Source: Lingula anatina (taxonomy: Eukaryota; Animalia; Brachiopoda). From it: a stretch of DNA of 64,000 nt. Position 1 is the first letter of the stretch; each line of letters begins with the position of its first letter. The DNA is taken from the NCBI GenBank assembly GCA_051362555.1, contig CM120640.1, forward strand, positions 31,577,967 through 31,641,966, written 5' to 3'. Position numbers and translations under genes: made by a program. The notes beneath the pieces are model-generated. The model was not told the DNA's origin. It searched no databases and saw only the letters and a program-made list of their open reading frames with translations. Positions 6,045-54,110 of the stretch are shown one piece after another.

Positions 6045-6945
6045 CTGAAAGTGGATAAACATGACTATTATAACTTATTTAAAAACTAAATTAATCTGTG
6101 TTAAATACGGTGTATTTTGTAATGATAATAATATGATAATGTAGTCTTACATGGCGCTTTACAGATTAAGAGATAAAATGACAACTGAATTAGATGTAAA
6201 AATGACAAATTAAAAGTAAAAAAATAAAAATTACAACTAACTAAAGAAATTCTAAAATTATGAGTCTAAGAGTTACTTATACTAAATTAGAAAAATCTAA
6301 AAAGAATTAGAAGATTAAAAAATAAAATGTTGCTTTATCAGTCACTACAACTGATTAAAAAATGTAGGTCTTTAAAAGTCAATACTTTCAAGTTTTAGTA
6401 TATGTATATTTTTTAATTTCACCTTAAACTCTATCACATCGATACAGGAATGTGACTGTTGGTTTTCTCATTACAAATAAGAGAACGGTAATTTAATGAA
6501 GACACAATAATGTCATAATTACAATTATGGGCACAATATGCAGTTGTGTTAATGTCACGGATGAAAAATACTCAGACATTTTTGATAAGACAGGTAGGGA
6601 GATAATAGTCAGTCGGTCCATCTTGATATCAGACGGCATGTATATATCACGCGTTCAGGTTAGGTGATATTAAAAGAGATATCTGATGTGAACGATGATG
6701 TGCAGTGCCCAGTGGAGAAATCCTGAAGTATTTAGTATTCTTCGAAAAAATGGGATAGCTAGTTTCTGTTAAATAAAGTGACTTGGGTTCACCGCAAACA
6801 TATTTTCTATTGTAACACTTGAATTTACGTAGCACCTAAATCAGTCCACTACTGAATTCAAAAGATATAAAACCACAAGCAAAAGGAAGGCATCCATCAA
6901 ACCGCATAAATGTGATCTTAGAACCAAACAATTAATACTTCATAC

Positions 6946-14000: not shown

Positions 14001-17000
14001 CCCTGGTTTTTTTCTAAAAAGTTTGTTTTTTTTTTGTTATAATCTCTTAAGAGATTATAACAAAAGAGGTTATAATCTCTTAAGAGATTATAACAAAGTA
14101 TAGCCATCAATGGAGGTCACATGGTCTAAAGACAAGCTCAGATATCAGAATAATAGCTATAACTGCTGTTTTTGTGGTACAACAGAATATATTATATTTC
14201 TACAAGTTGTTCACAATGTTTTTATTGTGAAATATAGATCTCATACGAAGAGTTATTATCCCTTTAATCAAAATACAACTGCTTAAAACATGTTGCTATT
14301 TTTTATTGACTTTTACCATTTTACTTGATATACATACCCAACATCACTTCATAAAAAGAAAATCACCTGCACAAGTAATGATTTCACTACAGCCAAAAAT
14401 GCTGTAAACAAAAGTATCCCACTGGCTCCCATGGTGAAGACAATACCACCGGTTACCACAACTAGAATAACAGCAGGTATACCATTGGTCCCAGGACACA
14501 GTAGCTCACTCTTGTAAGAGGTTGTGCACACAGTGAAGTGCCCTGCCACTGCTACCACACCACTGGCCACACACAACCACCTCACAGTGCCACAACTGGG
14601 GACCTGCACACTACTGCCATCTGGTGAGAAGAGAGCAGCAACTATTGCTACTGGTACCTGTAATGAAAAAGTTGTCAGGTAACAATACATGTATAAACAG
14701 TCTTCATTTACATGTACCAAGAGACAAAAATCTTTAATGGTTGGCAAAAGAGGGCCATGATTATTTGCTCTCAATACTGTACAAGTTGAATAGGCAGGCA
14801 AATTGCAATTTTTCTCCATTCATACGTAATGGATTATGCAGGTAATATATAGTAGGTAAAGGATAATTATGCAAGATTCAAAAAATCCCATCACCATGCA
14901 ATAACTCACCATGCAAAGGAGGGAGATGGCTATTATCATAGCATACAGGTCATAGCTGGCTAGGGATCTCGCAACTTGGTCTCTCATGGCAACAACTGAA
15001 TCCCTGTAAGCTTTCATAACATGATACGCTGACTGCTCATCAAGAGCTACTTCTTTGTTATAATACATGTGAAGCCATGATTCATGTTTCTTGATGGCTT
15101 GCTCATACTGAATAAAAACAAACTCTGAAATAGAGAAAAAGAAAAAATCACATTTTACTGCAAATGTAAGCAAAGGTGTCATAATGCAGCATTTTCCATA
15201 AAAAAAAACTTGGGTTGGCACTATTATGAAAAAAAATATAACTGAAAAGAAAATTTTAAAAAAAGCTTTTAAAAAAGCTCTCTTTCAATAATCTACAACC
15301 TCTCAGTAGTCATATGATCATTATGATTTAATGTCCATGACTCTTGTCAGCACAGGTTTTTTTCACCAAATGACAGAAAAAAACTTCAAATTCTGAAAAT
15401 ATTATTTTGCCTGATACCAAATTTCATTAAACTGAAAAGATATGAGTCTTTGTTTTTACAATTAGAAAAAATTAAACATTTACTTTAAATTAAATATACG
15501 CTTACTATAAGTGAAACAGCAAATAAAATGCCACACATGTAGGTCATGGATTCTGGTTCTCACCTTTTTCATAATTGGCCACATTTTGTTTGTACACAAG
15601 GGCCACTTGGTGTGCATTCAGTTGCATTGCCCTCAGTGCCAGTCTCAAGTCATATTTCCATAGGACATCAGTGGGCAGTGCTCCCAGGTTGTTCTGGGGA
15701 ATGGGAACCCCCATCAAAGTGGACAGAATGGGCGCTAGGTCAATCTGCTGGAGTGTGGACCAATCAAACTGGACACCTAACAAATAATTAAGGGATTTAT
15801 CAAGTCCACAAACCCATATGTTCCGTGCTTTCAATAAAAATGAACATTAAAAAGGGCAAATGTTAAGCTAACTTGTATACTTATAATAGTATCAGGAAAA
15901 AAGACTGTAAACCTATTCTACTACTTTTTAAAAATGGTCAAGGATAACAATTTCAAACATCTGAACAACAGAACCTCTACTACCTTTCTTGTTAGAGTAG
16001 AGTGAACTGAGCAAAACCAGTGGTGTGGAGACTTCAGTAACAGAAGACCCCCCATGACTTCCCTGGTCACTCATGCCATGATCTCCACACAGGACCACAA
16101 GGGTGGGCAGCTCTAGGTCACTGTCCTGGTAAACAACAACTGGACATTAAATGTGAAAAAACTGATATCATCACCTACAACACTACCAGTACTTTCTAAA
16201 CATACACCTTCAGAGACAGAATAGTAGTACAGTGCAGGCCATGTAATCTGAGAAAACTCTCCACTTTAAAAAGTGCGATGAATTATCAACCAGAAGGTTA
16301 CAAACAGGATAGACTTTTGCTAAAAATCATCCACTAATTGTACCTATCTCACTGTATAAGTGTAAGTTATTCTTTATTAAAAGCTAAGGCACACTGCACT
16401 TCTGTGGAACGGATAATAACTACATATAAGTCCAACCTGTTTTATCACAGCTTTGTGTATTTTCTCCATTATTCCATCCATCTCCTTCAACTTTGGTCCC
16501 ATAAGTGGACTATGTGGTCCAGCCAGATGACCAATGTGGTCAAGGCCCAGGTAATGAAGGATCATGACATCCCAGTCTGTTCTCTCCAGCTCATCTGGCA
16601 AATGCCTAGTGACATTGTCATCTACCTTTAATAACCAAAGTAAAAATATCAAACCAGCATATATCATTTCACATTAAAACATGTAATGCCAACATTTCAG
16701 GTTTTGTATCACTCAATCATGCTACATAACCTCTTCAAACGTTAAAATGAATGTGTCAACCTTCCTTTTTCATCAATCAACCTTTAAAAAATACATGTCA
16801 GAAAAAACAGTAATCAGTATAAAATTTCCAGTCATTCTTCAGTCATTTTACTTATAGGTAAGTACAAATAAGAATATGAGAATAAGAATATCTCAACATT
16901 TTACCTCAGTATAGTCAGTAACAAAGAATGAAGTAGTCCCATCTTCACGGAGAAAATGTCCAGGAAATAATCGGATCCAGGTGTCATCTCCATAAAACAC

Positions 17001-18050
17001 TATTTTCTTCCCATTTCTATGAAGCTGTGTGATAAAATTGTCTTCAGTCAGAGATTTAGAGTCAAAGTTGAGTACCACATCTATAAAACCTGGTATTCCC
17101 CCCGTAGTTATTGCCTAGAAAGAACCAGTTAGCAAAATAATTCATTCAAAAGACAATTCTGACTATCACCCTGCAACAAAAATACTTTTCATTTCTCCTT
17201 AGATTACTATGTTATATATAACAATCTATCTCAGAATGACTCTGAAAATAGATCTACATGCAATAACTTTTAACTTTTTAGTCTTTTTAAATTTAAAAAT
17301 GCCATTAGTATTAATAAATTGACATGAAATTATCTTCACAAATTAAAATCTGTTTAAAACACACAGAATACAAACCTTTATTCTTGGCATAGTTACAGTT
17401 GGAGGATGTGCCTTAGCCACAAAACTCACAGCTTCTTGTTTAGTAATCTGATCTTTAACATAAGGCATGCCCCGGTCTTTGGTGGTATTGAAAACAAAAT
17501 CTGCCCTCAGTGCATCTATTAAAACAATGACCATTCTTCCAAACAAGGGTGGAACTGGGAGTGAAGGAGTTTCAGTTTGGGTGAACTTGTCTTGTATTGG
17601 CTGAGGTGGTAAATCAATGAAAGATGCATGACCTGAAACATATCAAAATACAACATGTACTACCCTCATCATTAACAATACAAAAATGTGATGAAACATC
17701 CCCCCCCCCCCCCAAAAAAAAAATGTGATAGAAATATTTCACTTATGATGTGGTTTCAAACTTGAACAGTAAATAAAGGTATTTAAGATAAGATTTCAAA
17801 ATCTCACAGTATAAAACACCAAACAGCTATTGAATCATCAGTTTAACAAGATGCCACAAATTGCTCCATAAACTGAACAGCGACAATATTCATACAATTA
17901 TCTTGAATTTCATTTTTTAAAATGTACCCAGTATAATATGTTACCTGATATTGCTGACTTGACTGGGAAAAAGCCTTTTAGAAAAACCAAGAAACCCAAT
18001 ACCTCTAGGCAAACACAACCCAGAATGAAGACAGATCTCTTTATTTTCAT
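11055..18050 (-). CDS. PIGG: GPI ethanolamine phosphate transferase 2 (PIG-G/GPI7); ~13 coding exons (approx. 18050-17945, 17632-17376, 17114-16905, 16625-16437, 16125-15984, 15776-15564, 15125-14910, 14657-14368, 13719-13181, 12911-12723, 12467-12150, 11745-11548, 11264-11055)
   Basis: Motifs FLKGFFP, VLIDALRADF, AHPPTVTMPRIK, FYGDDTW, TTSFFVTDYTEVDDNVTRHL, ILHYLGLDHIGH, CGDHGMS..GSHGG, QIDLAP, SSSFVEEEHQTWYF, RSWNQTG.KW, GNSNSITTVDVSAGYVG and RYHLFVWSVFSPKLLY, spread over GT-AG-bounded exons. A 5'UTR exon ends at about 18793. Confidence 0.95.
13892..14263. mobile_element. MITE with TTAA target-site duplication (Kolobok-like) in a PIGG intron
   Basis: TIR AGGGATAATAACTCTTCGT / ACGAAGAGTTATTATCCCT (19 bp perfect), flanked by TTAA on both sides. 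AG termini with a TTAA TSD fit Kolobok rather than piggyBac (CC termini). Confidence 0.75.
14032..14094. repeat. Two tandem perfect palindromes GTTATAATCTCTTAAGAGATTATAAC
   Basis: 34-bp perfect palindrome at 14032-14065 and a 26-bp copy at 14069-14094. Confidence 0.9.
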
Positions 18051-18950: not shown

Positions 18951-26725
<7,775 letters not shown>

Positions 26726-27738: not shown

Positions 27739-30700
27739 TCAATCCTGATCCTTCTTGAACTCCTAAAAAGAGAAAATTAAAGCACAATGCGTATAAAAGA
27801 AGTCTTCTGATTTACATTACTGTGTTATTATGTTTTTTTTTTTTTTTCCAACAAAAAAATGCATGCTATTGTACTACTAGCAACAACATTTGGTGAAAAA
27901 TGCATACATAAATGTTGGGATATAATAAACTATAGTTAAAATAAATAAGGTGATAAAAGTGATAATATGCAGAGCCTGAATGAGTAATCTATGATACTCT
28001 TACACCATGGTAAGTTTACACCTTTTTATTAAGTGTCATATCTACCAAAAACGATGCCTAACAGAAAAGTAAACAATTATGCTAGACATTAAAATTATTC
28101 CTGCTTCACACTTTCAACAAAACCATTTCACAGAAATGAACTTACGTGCTTTATATATGATAAAAATACATCCCATCCTAATGTAACAAAGTTAACATAT
28201 ATCACTCTCAGCTTAGGAGGTAGAAAATAAAAGTTGATGCACTGAGCAGCTGGCCATACTGTCCAATCAGCCTGGAATATAGAACCTTGCTTTAGACATT
28301 TCATAACTACATATCAATATATATCTAGAACTATATATCTTTATATACATATTTCTGTAGAATAAACATTTGAGCATTATAGAAATAGTGTTTACTTTTT
28401 TAAATTCCTCAAATAAAGAATTTACATACAATGCTCAGCAAGCGTATTACTTATTCACTTGTACAACACACTATTTTATATATCAATTAAAAACACTTAA
28501 TGTTTACTGAAAAAATCTTTTTTCACCAATCACAAATATTTTTAAAGTTACTTCTGTAGTGCAGTCAGTGCTCTAGCACAGTCAAATGTCATGAAAATAT
28601 TTTCTATACAAATAATGAACTTCAAGGACAACTATTAATTTCAATTTTCCTGCTGTAAGCATTGAGAATCTCACCATATAAACTGTCCAAAATTTGGACT
28701 TAAATTCCTGTACCCCCTTGTCCCATGACTGCCCTTCTAAAAGACCCATTCCTAGATAATAATAAAAATGAATATGAAAGGCAATGCTTTAACCATAATA
28801 AAAACTAAAATGGTTTTTCAACATATCAAACATTTCTTTTCAATTATTAACTTGTTTTGTAAGTGTTGTCAATATTGAAACTAGTAATTTCTTTTGTACA
28901 AAAATGTGCATTAAGCAAGAGTTTGGTTGTGTAGTGAAGTCATTTTTCACAAATTTAACACCAAAAATAAAGATGTAATAAATGTTGGTAACTACTTGTA
29001 CTTGCTAAGGGTATAAACAAAACATAAACACAGACAGTGTTAAAAAAAGTTTTTGTCAAGGATATACATGTAAATTTTAGTGCACGTTTTAGCATCAAAA
29101 ATAACACATACGGCTAAAACCTATAACAATATTAATAATAATAATAATAATGATAATAATAATAATAATAATAATTTGAAAATAATCAATACTGGGATAA
29201 TTTGGACTAGTAACTTTTGAGGAAGTGAGGTTTATCAAAATTGATGCTAACATGTACCTTAACAGTTATGGTTTAGGAATTATAAAAGTCATAAGGGGTT
29301 AAGATTAAGAAAATGTCTGTTTAGATTAACTTAAACATAAAAGAAGTTATTTGTGATAACACTAAGTGCTCTTTAGCTTGAAAGTAGTCTTTGAGTAAAA
29401 AAAAGAAATGATTGAATCTTTGTGCAAAACTGGTAATGGAAATCATCTGAAATAGCCTTAAATGAGGCTGTTAGAAATCCATGTCATATATGAGACTAAA
29501 AAATGGTGAAAATCAGGGTGAAATTGGGTTAATTTTTATGAAAATGTTGCAACTGTGTATGCAGCAGCAATGAAGTCTTAGAAAGCAACATATAAGTGCA
29601 TACAAAACATGGTGAATTTGTATAAGCAGATAAATATCCATGAATAAGTTCTGTCAGCTTTAATTTGTTGCAGCACCATACTAGCTAGTCTGCCACTATT
29701 TTTCACCCCTCTCTCCTCTTAATCTTGCAACATTTTGATCGAGTTTTTGCTAAATTGCCAGATTTTGTGCTATTTTGGATGATCCCCATGAAGTGGTTAT
29801 CTCAAAATATTTCTAGTCAAAACCACTTCATGTTCACAATAAAAACAAACATTTCAATGCATATTTTGATATAAATAACCAGGGGCGGATCCAGAGATAT
29901 TTTCTGACAAAATATCTTTGTTAATTCGTCCCGATTTTTTACTGTCTTCCGACAGAAAATATTAGATACCCGTCAATGTAAACTTAAAAATCTGACCGTC
30001 TTCCGGAAGACCCAGAAGACATCCTAAATTCGTCCCTGAATAACCCTTTAACACCTATTCAGATTTTTTTCTCTGATACCTCTTTCAGCTTACCCATAAG
30101 AAAGCCAAAAGCAAAAAAAGGTGAGGCAAATATTTGGTCCAGAAGTATTTTCTTTGCAATGGTTTTGAATTGTGTTCCCTTCAGAATTCTGTCTAGGAAG
30201 CTATACCAAGCATGACTGGCTGGGCCTTGCAGGACTAGCCCAATCGTAACCATACGACCTGAAATGCAGTGGCAAATAATCTAGAGCCCTCAATCAATTC
30301 TTTTTTCAATATGATCCTAAAAGGTTCCAAAAACACTGGACAAACAGCTGCCATACCTGTAAAAAATATAAAGCTGCAAGAAAATGAAGAGGAGGGGGTA
30401 CAAAAGCATAGGAAATAAATATTTTAGTTTGAGGAATTTGATCTCACCGCCAAAGAAAATTACTAGTGACACTGGTGACATTATTAGTTGCTCCACCATA
30501 ATCTTCTGTGCAATAGTCTTAAAGTCTCTGCCTGGAAGCCACCAATCTAGGTATTTATAATACTTATGAGCCATGGGTCCAAAGAAGAATCCCACCACTG
30601 TCATTCGACCTAAGATAGGATAAATTCATAACATGTATTTAATAAAAGTGCATTTGCATTTCAATACAATACAGTTTTGTTATCTGATATCATATGTGCA

Positions 30701-31150
30701 AATAAGTTAACTCCAAGTTTATGTCCATTAACATAAGGACCCAGTAAATATTTACCAAGCCCTTCAAAAGGCAAAATGCCTTGTACATATGTGTGTATAT
30801 ATATATATATACTAATATCAATTAACAGTAAGTAGCAATCTACTTATATGTACATGTACACTGTATGTAGTCTGCCAAGCACTGCATGACAACAGTATGA
30901 TTGTGAGGCATGTTTATCGAGCTTCAGTAGTTGTATAGCGAAACTTGACTTCGTGGACAAGGAGGATCAAACACAAACCTGTTCTTTTCCAGTCTCTTGT
31001 CCATGCCCCTCCTTTCTTTTTTATCCGTCTACCTTCAAAAGTCTGAACAATGGAATCTCCAGCTCCTAACAACACGCCGGCACTTATTGTGTTTGTTAAG
31101 AATAAATGCCTCCCAAACAAGATATTGTAAATTGACCTTACTCCATTCAT
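27739..31150 (-). CDS. MPV17L2: MPV17/PXMP2-family protein (MPV17-like 2); exons 31150-30979, [30609-30448 OR 30258-30094], 28751-28675, 28271-28146, 27762-27739 (~186-187 aa)
   Basis: Motifs [15 protein letters not shown]...GDSIVQ, DWKRTGRM, GP..H.(W/Y)Y..LD, K...(D/E)Q...[51 protein letters not shown]. All junctions are GT-AG and frame-consistent. Confidence 0.88.
29880..30038. mobile_element. Short MITE (159 bp), CAGGG...CCCTG termini, 6-bp TSD AATAAC
   Basis: Left end CAGGGGCGGATCCAG and right-end reverse complement CAGGGACGAATTTAG; AATAAC immediately before and after. Confidence 0.7.
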
Positions 31151-31677: not shown

Positions 31678-34600
31678 TGAAGATGTGTTCAGCGAGGATG
31701 ATTTTATCAGCAATCGTTTTGTTCCTTTTCACGTTGCTGGATGTCTCTTGTGCAGGTGAGTTTGGTATATATTGCATTCAACGTTGAATAGAAATATTCT
31801 AATCGAGTTCAGACTACCGAGTACGACTTCGAGTTATAACTTCACGTGAAGTGGGCGGATAAATATTAAAAAAAAGGACATGAACAGTGAATGCAAGGCT
31901 GCCAGTAACGGAGGAAGTGTCCAAAATGGATTTTTGCGTTTATATGAATTAGTTCATATGACTTTGACTAATTCTGTCATATGAAGATATTATGTGAATA
32001 TAGCCACTCATTCTCAATATATAGGTCCGTTTGAAAAAAACAGAAAAGTGAAAAATGAAGTTAAAGATTTAATGCGTATGCTACTTTTATAAATCTTTTG
32101 TAGTGTAAATCTATTTATCTAAGCAGTGTGTCTAGCTTTTTGTGTAAACCATGGAATTTTGTTTAATTCATGCCTTGCTTGCATGGGGAAATTTTCTGAT
32201 TAAGTAACGAAGGTTGCAGCTGTTTAAGTAATGAAAGTTTTAAAAATAGCAACCCTTCAGGATAATATTTGTAAGTAATATTCGCAAAAATTAAACTGCG
32301 ATAAGAGGTTATTAAGAGATGCATGTTTATTTTACTGACACATATGTCCTGACCAATAGGTATATTTTTTCACAGTGCCTGATAACAAAGGTTTTGTAAA
32401 TTACTTTCTATTAGAATGCAGTTCGGGAAAAACAGTTAACTGAGGCGTGTCAGCACACCGTCAAGCTTATCATGTATACATCTGAATTGAAGATTTTATT
32501 AATGGCTAGAATATTACAAAAACATGAAACAACTAAAAACAATGACCTGTGCAAAAGAAATAATGTGATAATGTGAAATGGTGTTGAGAAGGTTTTAAAT
32601 TGAGTCCGTCTATGATAGTAATTGTTATTTTTTATGCTAGACTGATGTAATTAAAATTCAACTTGGACAAAGAATTCTTCAGCTCACTAATTTTTAATAA
32701 TATAAAAAAATGTTAAATGGGCCTATATATTGAGAATGAGTGAGTAATACTCTGCAACTGTATAAATATTACACAGTAGTCAGCAACTAAATATTTTAAT
32801 TACATTATAAAACAGGATTCACATTTATCTTACTCCTATACTTGATATCATCACCATATTGTCCATGAGCATTTGGATATCAGATGGGTGGTTAACGTAA
32901 ATAAATTTTTATATTTTATCAAGAAAGGAAGCTATCATGGTGAGGAAAGAAAGTTGAAACGACAAGATGATAGTTTTTTTTTTCCTTGTAGCAATTTTTA
33001 GGTCTGTGTCTTAGAGGTTTTTTTCTTTGTAGCTTTTTTAGATCTTTTGCTTAGAAAAAGCTTATTGTTGCATTTCAGTCCATGAAAGAAAGTGGGAGAA
33101 CATCAATACTTTTATTTTTATACTTATTCCTTTAATCCTACCATGTATAGTACTTTAGATATATTTACTTCTTGAAAATAACAAATATCTTGGTAGACCA
33201 CAGATTGAATAAGTTATCCACACTTTCTTATATCTGGTCTTACTGTTCATCATAAAGGGCAACTTGTATTTATTTGACATTTAGTTGAAGGTTTATAGGT
33301 TTCCCCAGCTTGAAAGCAACAAGAAATTGGAAGCTTGCAGAATTTTACTGTGAACCCTTTCAGTTATTTGACAGTTCAGACAAAACAAACCTGTGCATGT
33401 GTACTTGCTGAATGGGTTAGACTACTCTAATTAGCTGTCACATTTTCTTTGGGGAACAATTGTGTTTAAGAGTGCATTCCCAGAGATTTAGATCGATCCA
33501 ACTAGATCAACCTAACTCCCTGGGGGTTCATGCTAAATTGCTGTCAGCCACCGCGCATGGAAGTTAATTACCCCCTTACAGCCTTATAGAAAATTTCTGC
33601 TTTCTTTCTGTGCTAGATATAACCCTGTCTTTTTCGGCAGGTCACTTGAATAAGTATGCACCCACAGCCCCAGCCATATGCAATGCATGCACAGTACTTT
33701 GTTATAACAGACTTTTACAAACTGGAGAGACGGATAAATATGCTAAATTACGACCAGAAATTTGGTGAAGGTGCAGTTTTAATTTAAACTTTTTTATGAC
33801 TGACAGAGTGATTAATTATCCCTTGGCATTTCCATCTTCATTAGGAACTAGTAGAAGTGGTTTATCATAGCCATTTTGGTTACCTTGCAAAACTGAGCTT
33901 GCTTTGCTGTGAATCGAGAGCAACTGATGTGCTTGTTTATAATGAATGGCAGCCAAGGATTGAAGTTTTGTTACTTTTTATTACAGCATAAAGGTGGCTT
34001 GGTTGAAAGTCCTACTTTAATAGAAAAACTTTTGACACAGATTGGAAAAAATGTGAAATATAGCTATTTTCCTCAAAATCTAGAAGATCAATTTCATTTA
34101 ACCTTTTCCTAAACAAGATGCATTCAGTAAAACATTGATTCAGTGGAGGATTTTCCAACGAATGCAGGTTTGATTTGAGGGCAAGCTTACTTGTTATGGA
34201 CGTGCATTTATGTACTAGTATGTAAGCTTTTCTTTAACATTATAACCAAAAGAGACACATGGGAGTAATTTCAGTTACCAGGAAAGAATGATGGAACAAA
34301 ATTCATTTAAATCATCACACAGCAAGAAATGGCAAAACAGGATATATTCCCATAAAAATGTATTTAACATTTTGCATGTGAACAAATTGATTTCCATGGC
34401 ACTTGTGGAGCAAATAGCATGACACGATATAGATTTTCCCTCAGGATATATTAGTTTTGTTTGGCTGACTTGCACTTGACCCTGCTTTTTATAACAGATG
34501 GTATGCTACATTTAAAGGAAATTAGAGAGCTCTTATTAAAACTTTCATCTTTTAATGACGCTGATTAACTGGAGCAATGTATGGTTTGAATCATAGACCA

Positions 34601-37600
34601 GTGAGCTCCACCAGTTAATAAACAAAAATGCCAGTATAGTAGATCATGTAAGAAGGAGAAGGAGAAAGGGATAAGATGACTACTGTATCTATGATTGTGT
34701 ACATGGAATAGGCAATGACTCCTGAGGCCAGAGGCAGAGACCCCACAAGTAAAAATCTACTGCTGTAATAGGCCCCCCTCACAGCCATTCCCTGTTTAAT
34801 GTTATGTGTCACATTGCATAATTCCTTATTAATGTTACAGTAAATAAGCTAGTGTGAACACAGGAAGTAATTTATCAAAAAAAGGCTCTAAAATTCCTGT
34901 CTGATTATTTCTGTATCTTGGGCAGGTGAGTGAATTGAAAGTCACATTTGATTTCTGAAGACCAACCTGGGCATTTTCTTTGAGAGATAAGAATGTTCCT
35001 ATATCTTTCAAACTGCACACCTAATTATCTCTGTCTTCTTCCTATTAGTATTAGAATTTCTGTTGATAAGTTCAGTGTTACTTTAGGAATAACAAACTTC
35101 CCAGATATGTGACTGTGGCAACATTTTCTGGGTAAAATTTTTGCACCCTTATATTCACTATTATATTAATGAATGCAAATAGGCAAAAAATTATTTTACA
35201 TTTTTTCCTACTCATTATAAAATAAGAATAATGGGTTTCTTACAGGTTTGATTATGAAAGTTCTGTAAAATTATATTGCTAGGAATCATATTATTAAATC
35301 GTAGCTGGTATTTTGGTGATTTCACATAGACACATGGTGTGTTTTGCTATAGATAAGGAATTGTAGAAACTGCATACATTATGGAATGTAGATTTTAAAT
35401 GAGCATTGAACATTTTAACTGAGTGAGTGATACATTGATTAGAAATTTAACAATGTCTCTTCTTTGCTTTCAGTTTCTTTATACGGAAATGATTTCCTCC
35501 ATGTTCCGTTCCGCGATGCTGGAAGCACCACTAATGTCCGCCTTGAGTTCCGCACCAGTGTTGCCAATGGTGTCTTGTTTGTGGCAGCAGGGAGCACAGA
35601 TTACTGCATCATTGAACTGAAGTCGGGAACCATCCAGGTCCGCATAGAGTTGGGATCTGGAGAAACTGTTCTGGAATCCCCTCCAGGACTATATCTGAAT
35701 GATCTGGCGTGGCATGTGGTCAACTTAAAAAGAAAAGGGGGTAGCGTGCAACTCACTGTAGATTACATCTATGAGACAACAAAGAGAATTCCAGGGAGGT
35801 TTTATGAACTTAACATTGATGATGGTGTCTATGTTGGAGGTGTCAGGGATACTGGTGGCTTATACTACACTCACAATCTTCTTGGATACAGGGGGTGTCT
35901 AAAACATATTCATTTCAATACCTACAGTATTCTAGATATTGTAAGACATAGCAAGGGGAACAAGAAAATCACCAAGGATGTACAGTCCCACTGCAGCAGA
36001 GAATTTAACTCTGAACCTAAACAAGCAATCAGTTTTACAGACAAGACCTCATATGTTGGATTTTTTGTGCAGAGTTCTCAAAATGAAATAACATTTGCGT
36101 GCAATCTAAGGACTAGATCCAAAACTGGAATAGTACTCTTTATCTTAGGAAGAAAGCTCAAGTCAAATTTCATTTTATTAGTACTGAACAATGGATTACT
36201 GACATTGTCTACAAAAAGAAATGGCAAAGTGAAAAGTGTTTCTACTAAAATTATTTTGAGTGATGGAAATAAACACTACATCAGTCTCAAAATTTCTGCA
36301 CTTCACATGGAGTTGGAAACTGAAACAGAACACAAGCAGCATTATTTTACCTCTAAAGAACAGAGCTCTTTAGATCTTTCTTCTATGTGGTTCATTGGTG
36401 GGCTGAGTTCCAAGATGACCACAATTGCTGCCAACCTGGGCATTGACTCATTAAAGAACTTACCAAAAAACATTGCTGGAATTTCCTTACAGGGTTGCAT
36501 GAAAGATGTAAAAATTGATGGCAAAGCCATGGGACTTCTTTCAGCGCAGATCACACATCTCATAACCCCAGGCTGTGCTTGGACTTTTCCTTGCTCCGCG
36601 TCTCCTTGTGATGAAGGGTCAGTGTGCGTAGAGCATAGTTACACACAGTTTGAATGTGTCATAAAAGACCTGAAAACCGCAACAGACTACATGCTACCTG
36701 CGGATGCCACTGTTTTACCTACTGTAGACCTGGTGCGCTTACACCCACTTGTTGTAAGGGAGGGAGGGTCTGAGGTGATCACAGAAGACAATGTGGATTT
36801 TGTGTTCAACTACAGGGCATATGGAATGAGGGATTCTGCAATATTTTTCCATGTTGTTGAGCCACCTAAACATGGAGAGTTGGAGGTAAGAGTGAGAAGC
36901 CGGTCAGAGAACAGCCTATTTACTCTACTAGATCTGACTATTGGAAAGGTGCTTTATATAAATGATGGATCGGAAGAAAATTCAGACCAAGTGACATTTG
37001 CTGTTGAACTTTTAGGGGGAGCAGACAGTGACCTCCCTGAGATACTCAAAAAACCGTATCGTTTCACACTAAGGATACAGGTTCAGCCTGTTAATGATCC
37101 GCCTATTTTAAAACTCCCACCAGGGGGGACTGTCGGTGTTCTTAAACATGCCAAGACACCCCTGAGTCAAAAGTCATTAAATGTGGTTGACCCAGACAGC
37201 AATCCAGACCAGATTACTTACAATGTGGCCTTTGAGGGTCCTGAACATGTGGTTGCCAGTCACTTTGAATTGGCTCAGAAACCAGGTGAAAGTGTCACAG
37301 CCTTCACTCAAAAGGAAGTCGCTGACAGAAAAGTGTTTTTTGTTAATCAGGGAGAACAAAAGACCAGAGTTAATGTTCAGGTTAATGATGGAAAGGACAG
37401 TAGTGTTAGGAAGATGATAACTTTTGTTACCATCCCTATTGAACTGTCAGTGACCCACAATACTGGTGTGAATGTATTCCCCACCAGTTATTCTTTAATT
37501 CTTCCAGAGAATCTCACCACTGCCACAAATATTCAGCGCCAAGACATTGATGTCAGATATGAAATTACCAAGTCTCCAAAATATGGTGAAATTCAGAAGC

Positions 37601-40600
37601 AAAAATCTAGCACAAAAGAATGGTTTCCTGTCAGCATTTTTTCTCAGAAGCATATTGACAGGGGCAGGCTGAGGTATTTCCACACAGGCAGAGCTTTACA
37701 TGCTATTCCTGACATGTTTGTCTTCACTGCTTCAACCCAAGGTGCTAGCATTCAATCCAGACAGTTTCACATTACCTTCGATCAGGTGCAGCTGCAGCTG
37801 AACAAAAACACAAAGCTTCAATTAGAAGGTGTGATGGAAATGGAGCTTAACAAATCTCACCTGAGTGCTTCTACGAACAATCCTAATACCCTCCCTGATG
37901 CTGTAATGTACAAGCTTATAACCACACCAAGACAAGGGCACCTGCTCAAATTAAAGAACAGCAACAGTAATGAGTATCAGCAAAGACTAGGGCAGAGCTC
38001 AAATTTTACCCAAAAAGATATCAATGATGGCCTCATCTTATATAAGCTGCACAGGACATCAGATAATGTTGTTAATGACAACTTTCAGTTTAGGCTGCAG
38101 TTCAAGGATGCAGGCAGCATTCAGTCTACTGCTTTTACATTTGAGATTGAATTTATACCTGTTGAAAGTGATATTTTGTTTACTAACAGACTGCTAAAAG
38201 ATGTTTTAGAAGGCGGAAGAAAAGTGATTACTAGAGACTATTTTTACCTGGAAACTGATCAGATTTCAGAATTTAAATTTACTCTGCTTACATTTCCCAA
38301 TCATGGCATTTTGCAGCTTATTAACTCAGAAAGTGACACCGTCATCAGCAACAATATTTCCCAGTTCAGTAACGCAGACATAAGAGAAGGCAATGTAGTG
38401 TACAAACATGATGACTCGGAGTACGAATTTGACAGTTTTGACTTCATGGCCACACCCATTATTGGGCCATCATCAGAAGACAAGCTGGAAATGGAGATTG
38501 TGGAATACACTGACACATTTCATATAAAAATTCTCCTTCGCAATGACAACCCACCAGTAAGGGTAGTGGACAAAGTATTCAATATTGTTAGGAATGGGAT
38601 GAGGCCATTTACAGATGAGGACGTAAAATATACAGATCCAGATATTAATTTTGACAGTAGCAACTTGCAGTACACAAGGCGTGGAATTTCAAATGGAGAG
38701 ATAGTGAATTCTACTGATCCCACTCTCAAAGTTTATCATTTCACTCAAAAAGACCTGGAAACTGGTCAGTTGATGTTTGTCCACAAAGGAAAAGAATATG
38801 CTCGGATATCCATTAAGGTAACAGATGGCCAGTTTCATGATATTGCACTTATGACAATTCATGCATCTGACCCATACATCAAACTAATAAACAACACAGG
38901 GCTGGCTGTTTTCAAAGGTAAAAGTGTTGCCCTGCGGTCTGATAACCTTAGCATTGAAACCAACATTAATGCTGCAGATAATGAGATTCGAATTATCATT
39001 ATATCTGCTCCAAGATATGGTAAGATTTTAAGAAGAGGACATATCTCCTCGGAATTCAATATGCAAGATGTAAAAAGAGGGCATGTTAAGTATGAACATG
39101 GTAACAGTGGACATGTGAAAGACTCCTTCAAGTTTGCTATACACGTCAAAGATGTGAGCATTCAGGGCACCTGCAACATTACAGTGTTTTTGGAGGACCA
39201 TCATCATCCACCAAAGTTTCAGCATAACAAGATGCTGGTTGTGGAGGAGGGACACACTGGAGTCATAAGTGACAACATTCTACTTGTCACACATTCCATT
39301 ACGCCACCAGAGGACATTTTGTTCACCATCCAAGATGGGCCCAAGTTTGGTCATCTGGATCTCACAGATTCACAGTTAAATGTTCACAATTTCACTCAGG
39401 GAGATATAGACTCTGGAAAGTTGGCATATGTTCACACTGAGCCTGGTGTAGTTGAAGATGTTATAACATTTGATGTGTCTAATGGGGTGCTTACATTACG
39501 GGGTTTGGAGTTTGTCATTGACATCATTCCAGAGGTACTCCCTGTCAGTGTTACCAATATAACCCTGAAAGAGGGAGGGACGAAAGCCTTGACAAAGCAG
39601 TACATGCAGGTGACAAACAAGCATTTCAAAGATGACAATTTTGAGTACGAGATTACACAGCAGCCCAACTACGGTTGGATAGAGAGAACTCAGGCACAAG
39701 GTGTTCGATTAGACCAATTTAGCTCCCAGGATATTCATAACGAGTTCATATATTATACACACAATGGAGAGGAATTCTACACTGATGAGTTCACTGTCCT
39801 GGCTAGAGCCATGGGGTCTGGCAAACAGAGCAAACCCCATACCATATATATCACCCTGATACCAGTAAATGACCAAGTCCCCCAGATAGTGACCAATAAA
39901 GATCTGCATGTGTGGAAAGGGTCTATTACATTGCTGACCAGTGCCCATCTTAGTGCCACTGACCAAGACACCCTGCCTGAAGACCTTCGTTATAAAATCA
40001 CCAGTCCAGATTGTGGGTATGTGGCCTTAAAGGAAAAGACTGGAGATGAGATTGTACAGTTTACACAAGCTATGCTGGACAGCAATCAGCTTGTGTTTGT
40101 TCACAGTGGTGAGTTTTGTTTGAGAATTGAGAATAAGTTTTAATTAGAGATGCGGTTGTTAAAGAAGTACGTGCGAAGTACTATCTGTGCCAAAATGTGT
40201 AGTCAGGTACAGGCCAAAAAAGTGTTTTGTTGCATTTAGCTGAGCTTGTTTGTGACAAGTTAAGATTTGTGACATTCAGCATTAATGCAGACCTATCAGG
40301 TTGAAAGAGTCCTTGAGTTTCAGCTGTAGTGATTGTAACCCTCTTACCTGTAAAATAGGCTCTGAAAGACTTGAAAAGACAAACACTAATCAACATATCA
40401 TTGCTTAACATATTATTTGTCCAAGTATCTTTGTAGGATAGTGCCTGTTACTACGGTAAAGTCTTGAAAATTTCGTCGTTCTTGAAAATTTCGTCGGCAG
40501 ACGATTTTCCGCCGACGTAATTTTTTTCCCTTTGAAAACTTCGTCTACCTTGAAAATGAGGTACTCGATAATTTTTGAAAAGTTCGTCACCAAATATGGC

Positions 40601-43600
40601 CGCGTTGTCCAGCTCAAACATGAAGGTAATGCGTCAGTTGATTCAAGACAATGATACGATCAGGATATCATTGCCGATAACACTCTCAATGGGAGACAGG
40701 AACAATAGTGCGCCCCTGCGAGCGGTTACCCACAATATAGATGGTTTAGATGTGAATTCCCGTTCTCAATTGCGGGAACGTCGGCCTTTTGTCTTTAGTT
40801 TCATTACTATTACCTGGCTTAAGGTGCGTTATCAAGCCGGCAAATAGAAGTCAGGCCGCGGCTTTGTCATTTGTAACGCCGTTATTGTTATCGGCGGCTG
40901 TCCTAAATGAGGAAGACACAATGAAAAAAATCAAGATATTATCTCGAAGTGAAATGTACCCGTCACTTCTATTCATGTCCATGTTCAGTTTAGGACCATT
41001 TAACGATTACCTGGATCGTACATGGAGATCGTTCGCAATGCGAATGGGACGAGATGGCAATATTCATATTTGTAGCGGACTCCGTTCGCATAAGATCTTC
41101 AGCGGGAGATCGTTCGCGATGTAAGCGATAATAAAATGCACTTTTCATATTAGTGCAAGGGAACTTCGTTCGTGGAAGATTGTCAGCAGGAGATCATTAT
41201 TTTAACTCCCCCTCCCTCTTTGAATTTTATTAATAATATATATTTTTCATTTTATCTTTAATCCCCCCCTTCCCCCGCTCACGGCATATCTTCAGCGGAG
41301 AATCGTTCGCGTAATATCGGCAAGACTTTGTTCGCATAAGATCGTCAGAGGGAGATCGTTCGCGATCCGAGCGAGACGAACAGGCAATTTTCGTATCATC
41401 ATCGGGAGATCGTTCGCGATGTAAGCAAGAATGAAATGCAATTTTCATATTAGTTCAAGGGATTTAGGGAACTTCGTTCGCGGAAGATCGTCAGTGGGAG
41501 ATTATTTAACCCCCCCACACACACACACACACACAATCACACACACACTTTGGATTTAAAAAAAATATTCATTTTCATTTGATCTTTAATCCGCCCCCTG
41601 CCCCGCTCACGGTATATCTTCGGCAGAGAATCGTTCGCGTAATATTCTCAGGACTTTGTTCGCGTAAGATCATATCAGAGGGAGATCGTTCGCGATCCTT
41701 GCTAGACGAAAAGGCTATTTTCACATCTTCATCGGGAGATTGTTCGCGATGTAAGCAATAATAAAATGCAGTTTTCATATTAGTTCAAGGAACTTAAATT
41801 TAAAATCGTCAACGGGAGATCAGTATTTTAACTCCCTGTAAATTTTTAGGAAGTTACAGATTGTAATTTTAGAAGGCCTGACACTCAATCCTGGGAAAAG
41901 CCCTGCATGCAACAAACGTTCCCAAGTGCGTAATTTTTTTTAACATGTCGCGTCCAGGTTATGATGCAAGGTTGCAATTAGGCTTATCTTGATCCTTCTC
42001 CTCTATCACTGTATCAGGAGGTATGTTTCTTACCGAGAAGATAATTCTCAACATGTTTTCGGGTACAGTAAGTTAAGTATAACTTTACGAGATGCACTAA
42101 TAAATAGATTATTATTTACCACCAGAAAATGACTTAGGAAGTAGTAATAAATATCCCACAATATAGGAGGGTCAAAGATAACAGTCGCTACGGATAAACT
42201 CCGAAGGCCGGATTTTTGAAAATTTCGTCATACCCAGGAGTCGGGGAGAGGTAATTTTGAAAAATTAGTCGGATTTACACAATTAAAAATATTAATTAAT
42301 TTTTAAGCGACGAAATTTTCAAGACTTTACCGTACTACTCTAATCAGGTATTGTAATTTTCACCCAAACTAAAAAAAAAAAGACATGCATGCAGGAAGAT
42401 TTTTTGCATGATGTTATTATGAGGTTAATAATCAAAAGTTAAGACTCGGGCAGTGGCATAGATATTCATGGAGATACAGTTTTCTTTCTTTTTTTTTCAT
42501 GGGTTTATTAGAAATGAATCTTACATGCGACAATAATTGCTAGTAATGCATTTTGAATCAAAAAAAGACTTTCATAACTTTAGGGGTGTGGCTGTTTCAG
42601 ACAAGTTGCCACTGCCTCATATGCAAATTCTAGCACCTCTTTTGTACCACTGTCTCCTGAAATATTAAATGGAGAACATTGAAACTTGAGGGATTGATAA
42701 ATCTATGACAAGAGCTGTGCCTGCTGTACATGACATTGTTGTGAAATCTGGGGACTTTTTTTGTGGGGTGTGGGGATATATGATTGTTACCCATCAAAAC
42801 ATTTATTGTAAAATTAGTGCTGATCCAGTGTTGTAAAGGAGGAGAGGGGGTTCCTTATTTTTCCTGAACTCTCCTGTTCACATCCATGATCCCTACTTAA
42901 TAAGAAGCAGCATTCTGGGCAAGAGTTTCATCAGCTTTTGTGTGTAAATATAATGGAAAATTATGGGTTCATCCCACTGGGAATTTAACACTTCTGTCAC
43001 ATTGGTTATGCAAACATTTTGTGTTACATTAGTATACCCATTGTTGGCTGTTTTATATATACTACAGCGCCCTCCAATAGGGACGAAATGGACATCATTT
43101 AATAAGTGATATTAAACAAGTATGCAAGTTCTACATGCAATGTGTGCATTACAGACATGACCAAAATGTTCACATTTTTTGTGGAATGAATCTGTGATAG
43201 ATAACATGGATTTGAGTGACAACTGGAACAGCTGTAGGCTTTTAACTCAGATAATGGCATTATATTATTGATATTTTTGAGCTGCGTCACTTAAAGTGAA
43301 TGATTATCTTTCAGGTGATGCTTCAGGGAGCTTCCATTTCCAGGTGAATGATGGCATCAACTACTCAGACAGAGAGATTTTCCGCATTACTGCAAGCCCA
43401 CTGGTACTTCATCATAACACTGATGCAAAGCTAGATGTTTACCCAGGCACTCTGCACCCAGTCACAGTGGCAGTGCTCAATGCCAGTACAAATGATGCCA
43501 ACCAGACACGCCCCCTGGTGTACACTTTGAAAACTAGGCCTAGGTATGGGAAATTGGTGACTACTGTGAATGGTAGCAATTTAGAAGTGTCGTCCTTTAC

Positions 43601-45809
43601 TCAGGCTGAGGTGAATGCTGGTGAGATAGCATATCAACACATGCAGGCTTTAAGTCAGTGGTCAATAGATGATACCTTCACATACGAATTGAGCACTCTG
43701 TATGCTGCATCAGTCACTGAGAGACTGGAAATTTCAATCTCTTATGACAATATCAATGCCAAGAATCAGGACCAACTTGTTAAAATGTCAGAAGTTAAAG
43801 TTCTTGAGGGCGGGCAAATTACATTTAATGAAAATCATTTAGATGTGTCTAGATTAACTGAAAAGATAAAGTCAATCAGCAGAAGTGCAGTTTTGAAATT
43901 TTTCATCACAAAATTTCCCAGCCATGGATACTTGTTGATTAATGATCTGAATGCTACTGCAGGTGCATATTTCCTGGAGAAGGAAATCAAAAATAACCGC
44001 TTTAAATATTTGAATGATCACTCAGATGCACACTGGGACAGCTTTGACTTCAGCCTTAAGGTCACAGGTCTAGGGTCCAAGATTACTTCACCAAAGTTCA
44101 ATGCCACTGTTAACATCACAATCATACCAGTGAATGATCAGCCATTTAGGATTGTAACAAAACATCCAACAATAGAGGTGATTCAAGGATTTACAATTAA
44201 CATTACTCCGCAGCATCTGAAGACTACAGATCTAGACTCTCCTCCAGAGAACCTTACATACACTATACTCACAGGGCCAACTAATGGAATTGTGGCCTTT
44301 GCTAATGCCCCTAAACTTGCTATCAGTTCTTTTACACAGAAGGATATCAATCAACTCAGACTGATATTTGTACAGGATGGGACCAGAGCTTCAGGCACTT
44401 TTAATTTTAAAGTATCAGATGGTCAGTTTGCCCCTTTTTATAAAGTGTTCACAATCAATGTGATCCCTCTCACATTAGACGTTGTCAGCAGTTCTGGACT
44501 GCAGTTGTTGCAGAGTCAGTCTGCTGTGCATTTAAACCAGTCACATTTGAACATCTCCACCAACGGGCTGCAGGAGGACATCGCGTTTTTCATATCTGAG
44601 CCACCACAATTTGGAGAACTGTTCATAGAAGATAAAACAGTCGAGCAGTTTTCACATCACAGTCTAATAGAGTCCCAGGTTGTGTACATCCAGACCGACA
44701 TGACTGCGGGTCAAGACTCGTTTGTTCTGAATGCAACAATTGCTGATCACCATATCATGGTTCCAATGAGTGTATCTGTTCAGCCATTTGTCAAGCAGGG
44801 CAACGTCAGCATTCCATCAGGTTCAAGGGTGCCGATTTCACTGTCAGAACTGAATGCAACAGCATTAGCAATAGCTACTAACAGCAATCCAGTATATTAT
44901 GTGATAAAACGACCAGTGTTTGGTATATTGAAGAAGACTATTATTAAAAGGTCAACACAGTCTGTGGATGGTAGTTTTACCTTCACTCATGATGACATTA
45001 TTAAAAATAGTGTGTATTATGAAGCAGATTTAGTGCATGTCCCAACCAATGGCCTAATCCATGACAAATTTGGGTACAGATTGACAGCTCCCAATGTTCA
45101 GCCTGCTGAAGGGGAGGTCATCATAAAACTTCAGCCTCCATTACTAACAACTGGGGCTATAACACCAAGTCCAGGTTTGGAGAAAGAAAAGGGTGCAGAT
45201 CAAAGCACTATGTTTGATCAAACAGACATTGGAGATGCTGAAAGAAAAAATAATAGCAACTCTGACAGTGTGTCAATAGACAAAGCAGTCAGGGAGTCAG
45301 ATATTAGTGGACTTCCCCCAACTGCATGGGTCATAACACTCGTCTTAGCTGTAGTGGTTACATTAGTGTTATTAATGATAGGGATTGCTGTTTGCAAGTA
45401 TAAGTATGACCAAAGAAAGAGGGGGACCTTTCAGCCACAAAGAGAGGACTCGCAGACCCCCCTGTCCCAGTCACATGTGACAATTGAACCGCAACGTTGG
45501 TCACAAAGTCAAAGCATGGATGAACTACCACAAAGTCATTTAATGGCCAGCTGCAGCCACAGGTCACCTCCAAGGTCACCCGATCCTTCAAGGACAGAGG
45601 TCAGTAGGGCAGTTCCAGAGGTCAAGGTCACACCTTTGATTAATTTGGAAGAACAGGTCAAGCTTAAGACACCAGAGGGCAGCATTGCATCCCTAACAAC
45701 TGATAGTCAAAGCCAGATGACTTTTGATTGGGATATGGTAGACCCTGAAATACTGAAACAGTGCAGAATTACGAATCCAGTACTGAAAGATAACCAATAT
45801 TGGGTGTAA
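31677..45809 (+). CDS. CSPG4: Chondroitin sulfate proteoglycan 4 / NG2 / kon-tiki (perdido) ortholog; 3 exons 31677-31755, 35474-40108, 43315-45809 (~2402 aa)
   Basis: Signal peptide exon; two laminin-G domains (VSLYGNDF..LEFRTS..G.LF, LNDLAWH, GYRGCL); many CSPG repeats (P.HG.L, FTQ.DI..G...Y.H, I.PVND); TM helix WVITLVLAVVVTLVLLMIGIAVC; C-terminal PDZ-binding NQYWV as in NG2. Confidence 0.95.
32005..32742. mobile_element. Non-autonomous DNA transposon with CACTC termini (CMC/EnSpm-like) in CSPG4 intron 1
   Basis: TIR CACTCATTCTCAATATATAGG (21 bp perfect, ~29 bp with mismatches) at both ends; flanks AGC / AGT (imperfect 3-bp TSD). Confidence 0.65.
40454..42332. mobile_element. Non-autonomous Tc1/mariner-type DNA transposon (~1.9 kb) in CSPG4 intron 2
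   Basis: TIR CGGTAAAGTCTTGAAAATTTCGTCG / CGACGAAATTTTCAAGACTTTACCG flanked by TA. Subterminal repeats TTGAAAA(T/C)TTCGTC. No transposase ORF. Confidence 0.85.
41020..41830. repeat. Internal tandem repeat of the transposon (about two ~330-bp units built from GGGAGATCGTTCGCGAT sub-repeats)
   Basis: Repeated GGGAGATCGTTCGCGATGTAAGC..AAATGCA.TTTTCATATTAG blocks at about 41104, 41405 and 41734; paired spurious ORFs 41230-41448 and 41575-41778. Confidence 0.8.

Positions 45810-47498: not shown

Positions 47499-54110
<6,612 letters not shown>

What the first reader, a model, noticed from the sequence alone, without database searches (positions are those of the whole stretch)
30094..30609. Tandemly duplicated, probably mutually exclusive exon 2 (2A/2B) in an MPV17-family membrane protein
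Seen: two homologous exons (162 and 165 nt), both phase 1-1 with canonical AG/GT, separated by 189 nt. They encode the same segment: [53 protein letters not shown] and [54 protein letters not shown]. They are highly diverged yet both open, so both appear to be under selection. Knowledge: this region spans TM2-TM3 of MPV17/PXMP2 proteins and includes the conserved DQ whose Asp (D92 in human MPV17) was proposed to affect channel selectivity. Inference: one gene makes two isoforms (EQ vs DQ, YY vs WY) with a swapped core. I know of no such switch described for this family.
Basis: partly seen in the sequence, partly recalled or inferred. Interest (0 to 1): 0.8.

Follow-up and report, generated by a model that had tools for sequence, protein, structure and literature searches.

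The report
Swappable core exon in brachiopod MPV17L2
In the lamp shell Lingula, the gene for a relative of the human mitochondrial membrane protein MPV17L2 carries two diverged copies of one exon, and RNA reads show messengers using one or the other (about one in five the first), giving two protein versions that likely differ in activity, with the choice predicted to be steered by competing RNA base pairing.

Summary
Confirmed. The minus-strand gene is Lingula MPV17L2 (not MPV17). Exons 2A (30609-30448) and 2B (30258-30094) are homologous, in phase and spliced either-or. In 8 RNA runs, 18 reads join exon 1 to 2A and 78 join it to 2B; each exon joins exon 3; no 2A-2B junction is listed. RefSeq already predicts both proteins (X2, X1). 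Synonymous sites are saturated, yet both copies keep nearly all conserved residues. 2B is family-typical; 2A departs at W75Y, D98E and A102M. Both lengths are multiples of three, so frame does not enforce exclusion. One element between the exons is predicted to pair first with exon 1 (hiding 2A), then with the next intron (hiding 2B), as in Drosophila srp; this was found post hoc and its conservation is untested. The channel-selectivity reading is untested: the MPV17L2 paper read ties it to mitoribosome assembly. No second exon 2 turned up in relatives, so its age is open. Starfish swap a different MPV17L2 exon, and 2A resembles an insect paralogue. Four paper searches and the scan's own notes show no earlier description. 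A new member of a known kind.

The parts
30979..31150 (-). Exon 1, coding part (172 nt, ATG at 31150, ends in phase 1)
   Evidence: junctions
30448..30609 (-). Exon 2A (162 nt): minor (about 19%), divergent copy; RefSeq isoform X2
30259..30447 (-). 189-nt intron between the alternative exons; no read depth in the bins lying wholly inside it and no 2A-2B junction listed
30373..30412 (-). Pyrimidine-rich element; predicted central arm that pairs either upstream or downstream. It follows a branch-point-like CTAAA whose A is 24 nt from the 2A donor
   Evidence: prediction only
30986..31020 (-). Purine-rich 3' end of exon 1; predicted upstream partner of the central element (would loop out 2A)
   Evidence: pair I17; prediction only
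30094..30258 (-). Exon 2B (165 nt): major (about 81%), family-typical copy; RefSeq isoform X1
29704..29731 (-). Purine-rich element in the intron after 2B; predicted downstream partner of the central element (would loop out 2B); single copy in the window
   Evidence: prediction only
28675..28751 (-). Exon 3 (77 nt), joined to either 2A or 2B
28146..28271 (-). Exon 4 (126 nt), carries the Pfam Mpv17_PMP22 match
27739..27762 (-). Exon 5, coding part (7 codons and stop)
   Evidence: junction; sequence; matches the RefSeq C-terminus

Best explanation
The Lingula MPV17L2 gene has a tandemly duplicated exon 2 that is spliced either-or into a major (2B) and a minor (2A) messenger, encoding two likely functional inner-membrane proteins that differ in their two central predicted helices, and the choice is predicted to be set by one intronic element that pairs either with exon 1 or with the downstream intron. 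Shown: both exons, all four junctions and no listed 2A-2B junction (odds about 0.97). Inferred: both copies are kept by purifying selection (about 0.85). Inferred, weaker: while the nascent RNA ends before 29731 the element pairs with the end of exon 1 and loops out 2A, favouring 2B; in transcripts not yet committed when the downstream arm appears, a stronger helix forms that loops out 2B and leaves 2A to join exon 3 (about 0.4). Inferred: 2B supplies the ordinary MPV17L2 role in mitoribosome assembly, and 2A gives a tuned variant with altered helix packing or partner binding; the duplication is more likely confined to the brachiopod line than ancient (about 0.75).
For: Junction reads (8 of the 9 listed runs laid): 1-2A 18 reads in 6 of 8 runs, 1-2B 78 in 8 of 8. 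2A-3: 14 joints in 3 of 4 runs plus 8 loose ends matching exon 3 in 2 of 4 runs. 2B-3: 39 joints plus 47 loose ends. The 2A share is 18 of 96 upstream and 22 of 108 downstream (Fisher p 0.86), as strict exclusion predicts. RefSeq predicts X1 and X2 on each of two contigs. Third-position identity is 17 of 53 and fourfold sites 3 of 11, against 37 of 53 at second positions. Both exons keep G64, G69, P70, H73, Y76, L79, D80, K94, Q99 and P104; against a profile without Lingula they score 73.4 (2A) and 80.4 (2B) bits, inside the 58-108 range of other homologues. Both isoforms give confident models with the same helices (pLDDT 93.3 and 93.8). Downstream duplex -38.7 kcal/mol: reached by 0 of 60 shuffles, 2 of 88 real segments and 0 of 55 geometry-matched segments; core pair probabilities 0.84-1.0. 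Upstream duplex -32.8: 2 of 300 shuffles, 5 of 224 real segments; it dominates in truncated transcripts (0.69-0.97 at 8 of 9 sampled positions from 30415 to 30391; 0.06 at 30409).
Against: Junctions with fewer than 3 reads in every run are not listed, and one row was hidden, so rare 2A-2B or 1-3 products are not excluded. No protein-level evidence and no tissue labels; the isoform ratio does not differ detectably between runs (chi-square p 0.16 and 0.25; Fisher p 0.15). The RNA pairing was found post hoc among six region pairs, rests on low-complexity purine and pyrimidine tracts, and has no conservation test. The best control for the two-arm sum (-70.9) nearly equals the observed -71.5 (0 of 70). 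The stronger helix would hide the major exon, so the model needs co-transcriptional timing. Exon-1 alleles seen in runs X7-X9 weaken the local upstream duplex from -22.2 to -17.8. AlphaFold models built from family alignments would look alike for any member. 2A varies at 4 amino-acid sites among haplotypes and 2B at 2. The exon tree does not place 2A with 2B.
Confidence: 0.75

Rival explanations
1. Exon 2A is a minor, drifting copy: it is spliced in by leakiness, and its product is tolerated rather than selected.
For: Minor share (19%, 95% interval 12-28%). Long branch (1.3-1.76 against 0.48-0.63 for 2B). It departs from conserved columns: W75Y (0 of 73 homologues), D98E (2 of 73), A102M (6 of 73). 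Four polymorphic amino-acid sites in 53.
Against: Synonymous sites are saturated while frame, splice sites and ten near-invariant residues are intact. It is used in 6 of 8 runs from all 3 studies, including the runs with many fixed differences from the window.
Confidence: 0.12
2. Exclusion is enforced not by RNA pairing but by a distant branch point too close to the 2A donor (steric hindrance), as in OGDH exons 4a/4b, or by a pyrimidine-binding repressor on the same tract.
For: A branch-like CTAAA lies 24 nt from the 2A donor, followed by the most pyrimidine-rich 45 nt among the gene's five introns (37 of 45). Mononucleotide shuffle p 0.004; 2 of 195 GTRAG sites in the window show this combination, this one probably among them. 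OGDH branch points lie 25-41 nt from the donor (PMC7969005 passages).
Against: Seven AGs lie between the tract and the 2B acceptor (+74 to +167), several of them YAG, and the AG-free zone is only 22 nt. The OGDH paper reports no fish orthologue with a YAG downstream of the distant branch point. A conventional branch-like site lies 35 nt upstream of 2B.
Confidence: 0.25
3. One reading: the swap changes the selectivity of an MPV17-type channel through D98E and W75Y.
For: Both positions are strongly conserved (D 70 of 73, W 61 of 73; DQ in 131 of 141 motif matches). MPV17, Sym1 and PXMP2 form pores, and it has been proposed that all family members are channels.
Against: None of the passages read reports channel activity for MPV17L2. 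D to E keeps the charge. The D92 paper could not be read. No solved structure of the family was found to place the residue.
Confidence: 0.12
4. The 2A/2B pair is an old protostome feature, kept as alternative exons in Lingula and split into two genes in arthropods.
For: 2A scores +22 bits towards the insect paralogue clade over the pancrustacean one, rank 1 of 67 outside rows; 2B scores -17.8. The core of that clade is supported by the flanks alone (98/88); seven further rows were assigned to it by resemblance. A 22-row exon tree nests 2A among the termite paralogues (86/99).
Against: The groups were chosen after the resemblance was seen; without the cockroach and termite rows the margin falls to +11.4 (rank 2). 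2A is a long branch, and a 2A+2B clade is not rejected (p-AU 0.10 and 0.26). None of 37 metagenome loci has two exon-2 copies; L021 has Lingula's intron positions and one exon 2. None of the 149 new representatives holds two exon-2 stretches in one gene. Octopus, Littorina, Branchiostoma floridae and Ptychodera records carry no isoform suffix. FKTIA is shared by 2A and 2B and by 0 of 73 others in full, though one has 4 of 5.
Confidence: 0.15

Closest known systems
Internal tandem exon duplication-derived substitutions (PMC8373072: passages and supplement search; PMC9741552: abstract and supplement search)
   Same: Two adjacent homologous exons, one used per transcript, with key residues kept and changes mostly conservative.
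   Different: The human catalogue of 236 events has no MPV17 or PXMP2 entry (0 hits in its supplement). Tissue specificity, common there, is not shown here.
SLC25A3 internal exon pair, dated to Vertebrata in the PMC8373072 supplement; its role as the mitochondrial phosphate carrier is recalled
   Same: A mitochondrial inner-membrane protein whose membrane segment is swapped by homologous alternative exons.
   Different: Unrelated family; the functional difference is characterised there (recalled) and unknown here.
Drosophila serpent exons 4.1/4.2, bidirectional RNA pairing (PMC4691838: abstract and first results section; PMC6071210: abstract)
   Same: Two alternative exons, sequence between them pairing upstream or downstream, each pairing favouring one exon.
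   Different: srp uses four conserved intronic elements proven by compensatory mutation. Here one central element is predicted to serve both pairings, the upstream arm is coding sequence, and nothing is tested.
Human MPV17L2 (PMC4117752: abstract start and passages)
   Same: Best-hit subfamily; the central helices and conserved residues match homologues named MPV17L2.
   Different: No exon swap is known there. Location and ribosome association were not tested for the Lingula proteins.
OGDH exons 4a/4b, distant branch points (PMC7969005: passages)
   Same: Short intron between the exons, with a branch-like site and pyrimidine tract near the donor.
   Different: The long AG-free zone is absent here (22 nt).

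Membership tests
Mutually exclusive tandem-duplicated exons | Adjacent exons homologous to each other, similar length, same phase | tested here: met
   162 and 165 nt, phase 1-1, 42% identity, score 101 against shuffle maximum 37
Mutually exclusive tandem-duplicated exons | Each exon joined to both flanking constitutive exons in RNA | tested here: met
   All four junctions seen
Mutually exclusive tandem-duplicated exons | The two exons are not joined to each other, and not both skipped | tested here: met
   No 2A-2B row in 8 runs; no 1-3 row in the 4 runs that could show it. Listing needs 3 reads from 2 starts in one run, and one row was hidden (none)
Mutually exclusive tandem-duplicated exons | Both copies conserved across species | tested here: inconclusive
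   Both are intact in the window, two RefSeq contigs and divergent runs, all Lingula; no other brachiopod or phoronid genome could be searched
Mutually exclusive tandem-duplicated exons | Tissue- or stage-regulated choice | tested here: inconclusive
   No significant difference among 8 unlabelled runs at low counts
MPV17/PMP22 family | Pfam PF04117 domain and an all-helical small membrane-protein layout | tested here: met
   Exon 4 peptide E 5e-18; six predicted helices
MPV17L2 subfamily | Nearest relatives are MPV17L2, not MPV17, MPV17L or PXMP2 | tested here: met
   Among 76 hits, every informative name is MPV17-like protein 2 or equivalent. Best hits only; no tree with the other subfamilies was built
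MPV17L2 subfamily | Inner mitochondrial membrane location and mitoribosome association | not testable with these tools
   Known for the human protein; assumed by orthology
MPV17-type channels | Pore activity whose selectivity depends on the conserved Asp | not testable with these tools
   Source paper not held; no family structure found
Bidirectional RNA pairing (srp type) | Complementary arms upstream and downstream, stronger than chance | tested here: inconclusive
   0 of 60, 2 of 88, 0 of 55, 2 of 300, 5 of 224 and 0 of 70 controls; post hoc, low-complexity arms
Bidirectional RNA pairing (srp type) | Arms conserved with compensatory changes; mutation and rescue | not testable with these tools
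   No second genomic sequence of the introns was available
Distant branch point exclusion (OGDH type) | Long AG-free zone from the branch point to the acceptor | tested here: not met
   Seven AGs between +74 and +167; AG-free zone 22 nt

The most novel reading that the evidence does not exclude
MPV17L2 has two ancient, functionally distinct core types. Lingula keeps them as alternative exons chosen by a single-element RNA switch with one arm in coding sequence, arthropods split them into separate genes, and starfish reach a similar diversification by swapping the last exon; Lingula would then offer a natural matched pair for finding what the central helices of this family transport or bind.
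Probability: 0.12. Interest if true: 0.68.

Novelty: new member of a known kind. Interest (0 to 1): 0.4.

Why it matters
What MPV17-family proteins carry or bind is still open. Two natural isoforms that are identical except for the two central helices are a clean pair for asking what those helices do. MPV17L2 appears to have been diversified repeatedly (exon 2 in Lingula, the last exon in starfish, whole genes in insects and Littorina), which suggests a recurring use for a second version of a supposed housekeeping factor. If the predicted RNA switch holds, it would extend bidirectional pairing control beyond the insect cases read here. Limits: the mechanism class is well known, both isoforms are already in RefSeq, and no functional difference is shown.

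Tried and rejected
No whole genome is held, so paralogues and a second copy of the introns could not be examined. Frame-based (NMD) exclusion rejected: both-included and both-skipped forms stay in frame. 'Isoform X1/X2' labels in Periplaneta, Hetaerina and Cloeon are not exon-2 swaps, so my first idea of a conserved insect exon pair failed; the Cryptotermes partner isoform was not seen. A search with the 2A region found only Lingula (1 of 3 candidates). In the 1.84-billion library, of three multi-stretch hits one is two fused MPV17-family genes, one an unrelated repeat protein and one an ordinary single-copy gene; only the best 150 of 1270 hits were seen. Four of six RNA duplex tests were at chance, including the 30-nt inverted repeat I1; the 2B-acceptor/intron-1 duplex (0 of 40) was not followed up. 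No solved relative by sequence or Foldseek; VIA-align best Z 7.1, rmsd 4.1, 120 aligned, to a TIM22-complex chain, within the range the tool calls common. The Atlas only confirmed the family. Exon trees were unresolved; 44 and 22 rows were chosen by hand from the 78 aligned proteins (the second set includes two locus exons), leaving out most vertebrate near-duplicates and fragments. The MPV17 channel paper (Antonenkov 2015) was not available. No complex prediction was run. Paper searches for a prior description gave 5, 5, 10 and 0 papers, none on this event by title and abstract start; MetazExp (PMC8728262, listing only) may hold the event as a database entry and was not checked.

Full report
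Observation. The two exons are present as described, on the minus strand: 2A at 30609-30448 (162 nt) and 2B at 30258-30094 (165 nt), 189 nt apart, each with AG/GT ends and phase 1-1. The rest of the coding gene is exon 1 (31150-30979), exon 3 (28751-28675), exon 4 (28271-28146) and a short exon 5 (27762-27739). The two peptides are 42% identical, far above shuffles (101 against at most 37 in 2000).

Identity. The 2B peptide matches 'mpv17-like protein 2 isoform X1 [Lingula anatina]' at 100%. RefSeq holds X1 (XP_013405159.1, XP_013417706.1) and X2 (XP_013405160.1, XP_013417707.1) on two contigs, and X2 carries 2A. The window differs from these records at a few residues (four in exon 1 against XP_013417706.1), so it is another haplotype or population. 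Of 76 homologues, all those with an informative name are MPV17L2. I built no tree with MPV17, MPV17L or PXMP2, so the assignment rests on best hits. Human MPV17L2 is an inner-membrane protein needed for mitoribosome assembly; channel activity is cited for its relatives (PMC4117752 passages; PMC6166979 passages).

Splicing. I laid 8 of 9 listed RNA runs, from 3 studies, with 6-30% of each run read. Exon 1-2A reads per run (X1, X4, X7, X8, X2, X3, X9, X5): 2, 0, 4, 3, 0, 3, 2, 4 = 18. Exon 1-2B: 16, 2, 8, 10, 13, 12, 11, 6 = 78. In one search, 2A-3 joints were 7, 0, 4, 3 and 2B-3 joints 18, 2, 11, 8. In one search exon 3 lay outside the stretch; loose ends matching it numbered 3 (X3) and 5 (X9) at the 2A donor, none listed for X2 and X5, and 14, 15, 9, 9 at the 2B donor. 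No 2A-2B junction is listed in either call, no 1-3 junction, and bins wholly inside the 189-nt intron have no depth. A row needs 3 reads from 2 starts in one run, and hid one row, so rare exceptions remain possible. The 2A share is 19% upstream and 20% downstream (unlisted loose ends counted as 0). Mates are not independent, so these are rough. The share does not differ significantly among runs, and the runs have no tissue labels.

Selection. Between the copies, third positions agree in 17 of 53 codons and fourfold sites in 3 of 11, while second positions agree in 37 of 53. The duplication is therefore old enough to saturate silent sites, yet both frames are open and ten near-invariant residues are shared. 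Against 73 non-Lingula homologues, 2A departs at W75Y (0 of 73; F in 12), D98E (2 of 73) and A102M (6 of 73); 2B departs at F111L and has a one-residue insertion; both depart at F61 and V91 (isoform B numbering). Among library representatives, DQ appears in 131 of 141 motif matches and Y at the W position in 3 of 143. Fixed differences in runs X7-X9 within 2B are 3 synonymous and 2 non-synonymous; 2A is too thinly covered for such a count and shows one non-synonymous change (one search showed only its best-supported rows). Both isoforms fold confidently, and the swapped segment covers helices 54-82 and 88-117. No solved relative was found, so I cannot say which way these residues face.

How exclusion may be enforced. 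Both exon lengths are multiples of three, so joint inclusion would stay in frame. The intron between them has a branch-like site 24 nt from the 2A donor and the most pyrimidine-rich tract of the gene's introns, which recalls OGDH (PMC7969005 passages), but seven AGs follow, so the defining AG-free zone is missing. The same tract (30412-30373) is nearly complementary to 29731-29704 in the next intron: -38.7 kcal/mol, reached by 0 of 60 shuffles, 2 of 88 real segments and 0 of 55 geometry-matched segments, with core pair probabilities of 0.84-1.0. This helix would loop out 2B. In transcripts cut before that arm, the tract pairs instead with the end of exon 1, which would loop out 2A (-32.8, 2 of 300 shuffles, 5 of 224 real segments). 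The two-arm sum beats 70 of 70 controls, but only just (-71.5 against -70.9). The layout resembles Drosophila srp (PMC4691838 abstract and section 5; PMC6071210 abstract). It was found post hoc, the arms are low in complexity, alleles in runs X7-X9 weaken the upstream arm, and conservation could not be tested. I give it about 0.4.

Age. No other brachiopod or phoronid sequence could be identified among the hits. None of 37 metagenome loci has two exon-2 copies; many are transcripts or partial. In most arthropod-like loci exons 2 and 3 are fused, and L021, with Lingula's intron positions, has a single exon 2 that is 33 of 54 identical to 2B and 22 of 53 to 2A. No tandem exon 2 appears among 149 new library representatives. 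2B therefore looks like the conservative copy. One result pulls the other way: 2A resembles the insect paralogue of termites, cockroach and louse more than any other outside sequence does (rank 1 of 67; 86/99 on a long branch), while 2B resembles the other arthropod paralogue. A 2A+2B clade is not rejected (p-AU 0.10 and 0.26). Convergence after a lineage-limited duplication is my preferred reading; an old split stays open at about 0.15.

Parallel case. RefSeq isoforms X1 and X2 of MPV17L2 in Asterias, Patiria and Acanthaster are identical up to the position of the exon 3/4 boundary and differ by 18 substitutions over the homologous last segment. This is the pattern of a duplicated, alternatively used last exon shared by three starfish genera; I saw proteins only, not their DNA. 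Littorina has two neighbouring genes.

Prior knowledge. Four paper searches found no description of this event (listings only). The human catalogue of 236 tandem exon substitutions has no MPV17 or PXMP2 entry (PMC8373072 passages and supplement), nor does the one held supplement file of PMC9741552 (abstract). Subscription papers are mostly outside the library. The scan's notes hold no look-alike sequence and only similar cases in other genes.

Verdict. A real, expressed, mutually exclusive exon pair in Lingula MPV17L2, already predicted by RefSeq but apparently not described in print. It is a new member of a well-known kind, with a testable RNA-switch hypothesis and an unresolved link to arthropod paralogues. 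Interest 0.4.

Noticed in passing
Proteins P0056/P0090 (Asterias), P0060/P0092 (Patiria), P0064/P0094 (Acanthaster): Starfish MPV17L2 isoforms X1 and X2 swap a homologous last coding segment (18 substitutions each), the pattern of a duplicated terminal exon conserved across three genera.
   Followed up: partly
window 30448-30609 against P0023, P0024, P0026, L028, L030: Exon 2A resembles one insect MPV17L2 paralogue and 2B the other arthropod paralogue: old split or convergence.
   Followed up: partly
window 29880-30038: A 159-bp repeat in the intron after 2B with CAGGG...CCCTG ends and AATAAC repeated on both sides; reads from many other loci pile on it. It looks like a small non-autonomous DNA transposon and lies inside the loop of the predicted downstream helix.
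   Followed up: partly
window 30362-30351 (minus strand, intron position about +91): A pyrimidine tract ending in ACAG is followed directly by GTATGG, an acceptor-then-donor motif like a recursive splice site; no read supports its use.
   Followed up: no
window 30290-30306 and 29399-29415: 17-nt inverted repeat (94% complementary) whose upstream arm covers the branch-like site 35 nt before exon 2B; it could add to hiding 2B.
   Followed up: partly
window 31678-45809 (+): A large gene starts about 530 bp from the MPV17L2 start codon, head to head; its long ORFs (35443-40143, 43281-45809) look like a CSPG4/NG2-type proteoglycan (label recalled, not searched).
   Followed up: no
window 2772-6074 (-), 11055-17642 (-), about 19700-23200 (+): Exons resembling a class C GPCR, a PIGG-type GPI ethanolamine-phosphate transferase and KRI1 (labels recalled from the translations, not searched).
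   Followed up: no
window 50076-50306 and 51452-51739 (+): The same stretch occurs twice about 1.4 kb apart (identical translated ends): a local duplication or repeat.
   Followed up: no
L010, L011, L012, L028, L030, L032: In these arthropod-like genomic loci exons 2 and 3 are fused, in both paralogue types, so the Lingula-style swap cannot occur there.
   Followed up: yes
P0027 and P0065 (Littorina saxatilis): Two MPV17L2 genes with consecutive accessions on one chromosome, sisters in the flank tree (96/34): a whole-gene duplication.
   Followed up: partly
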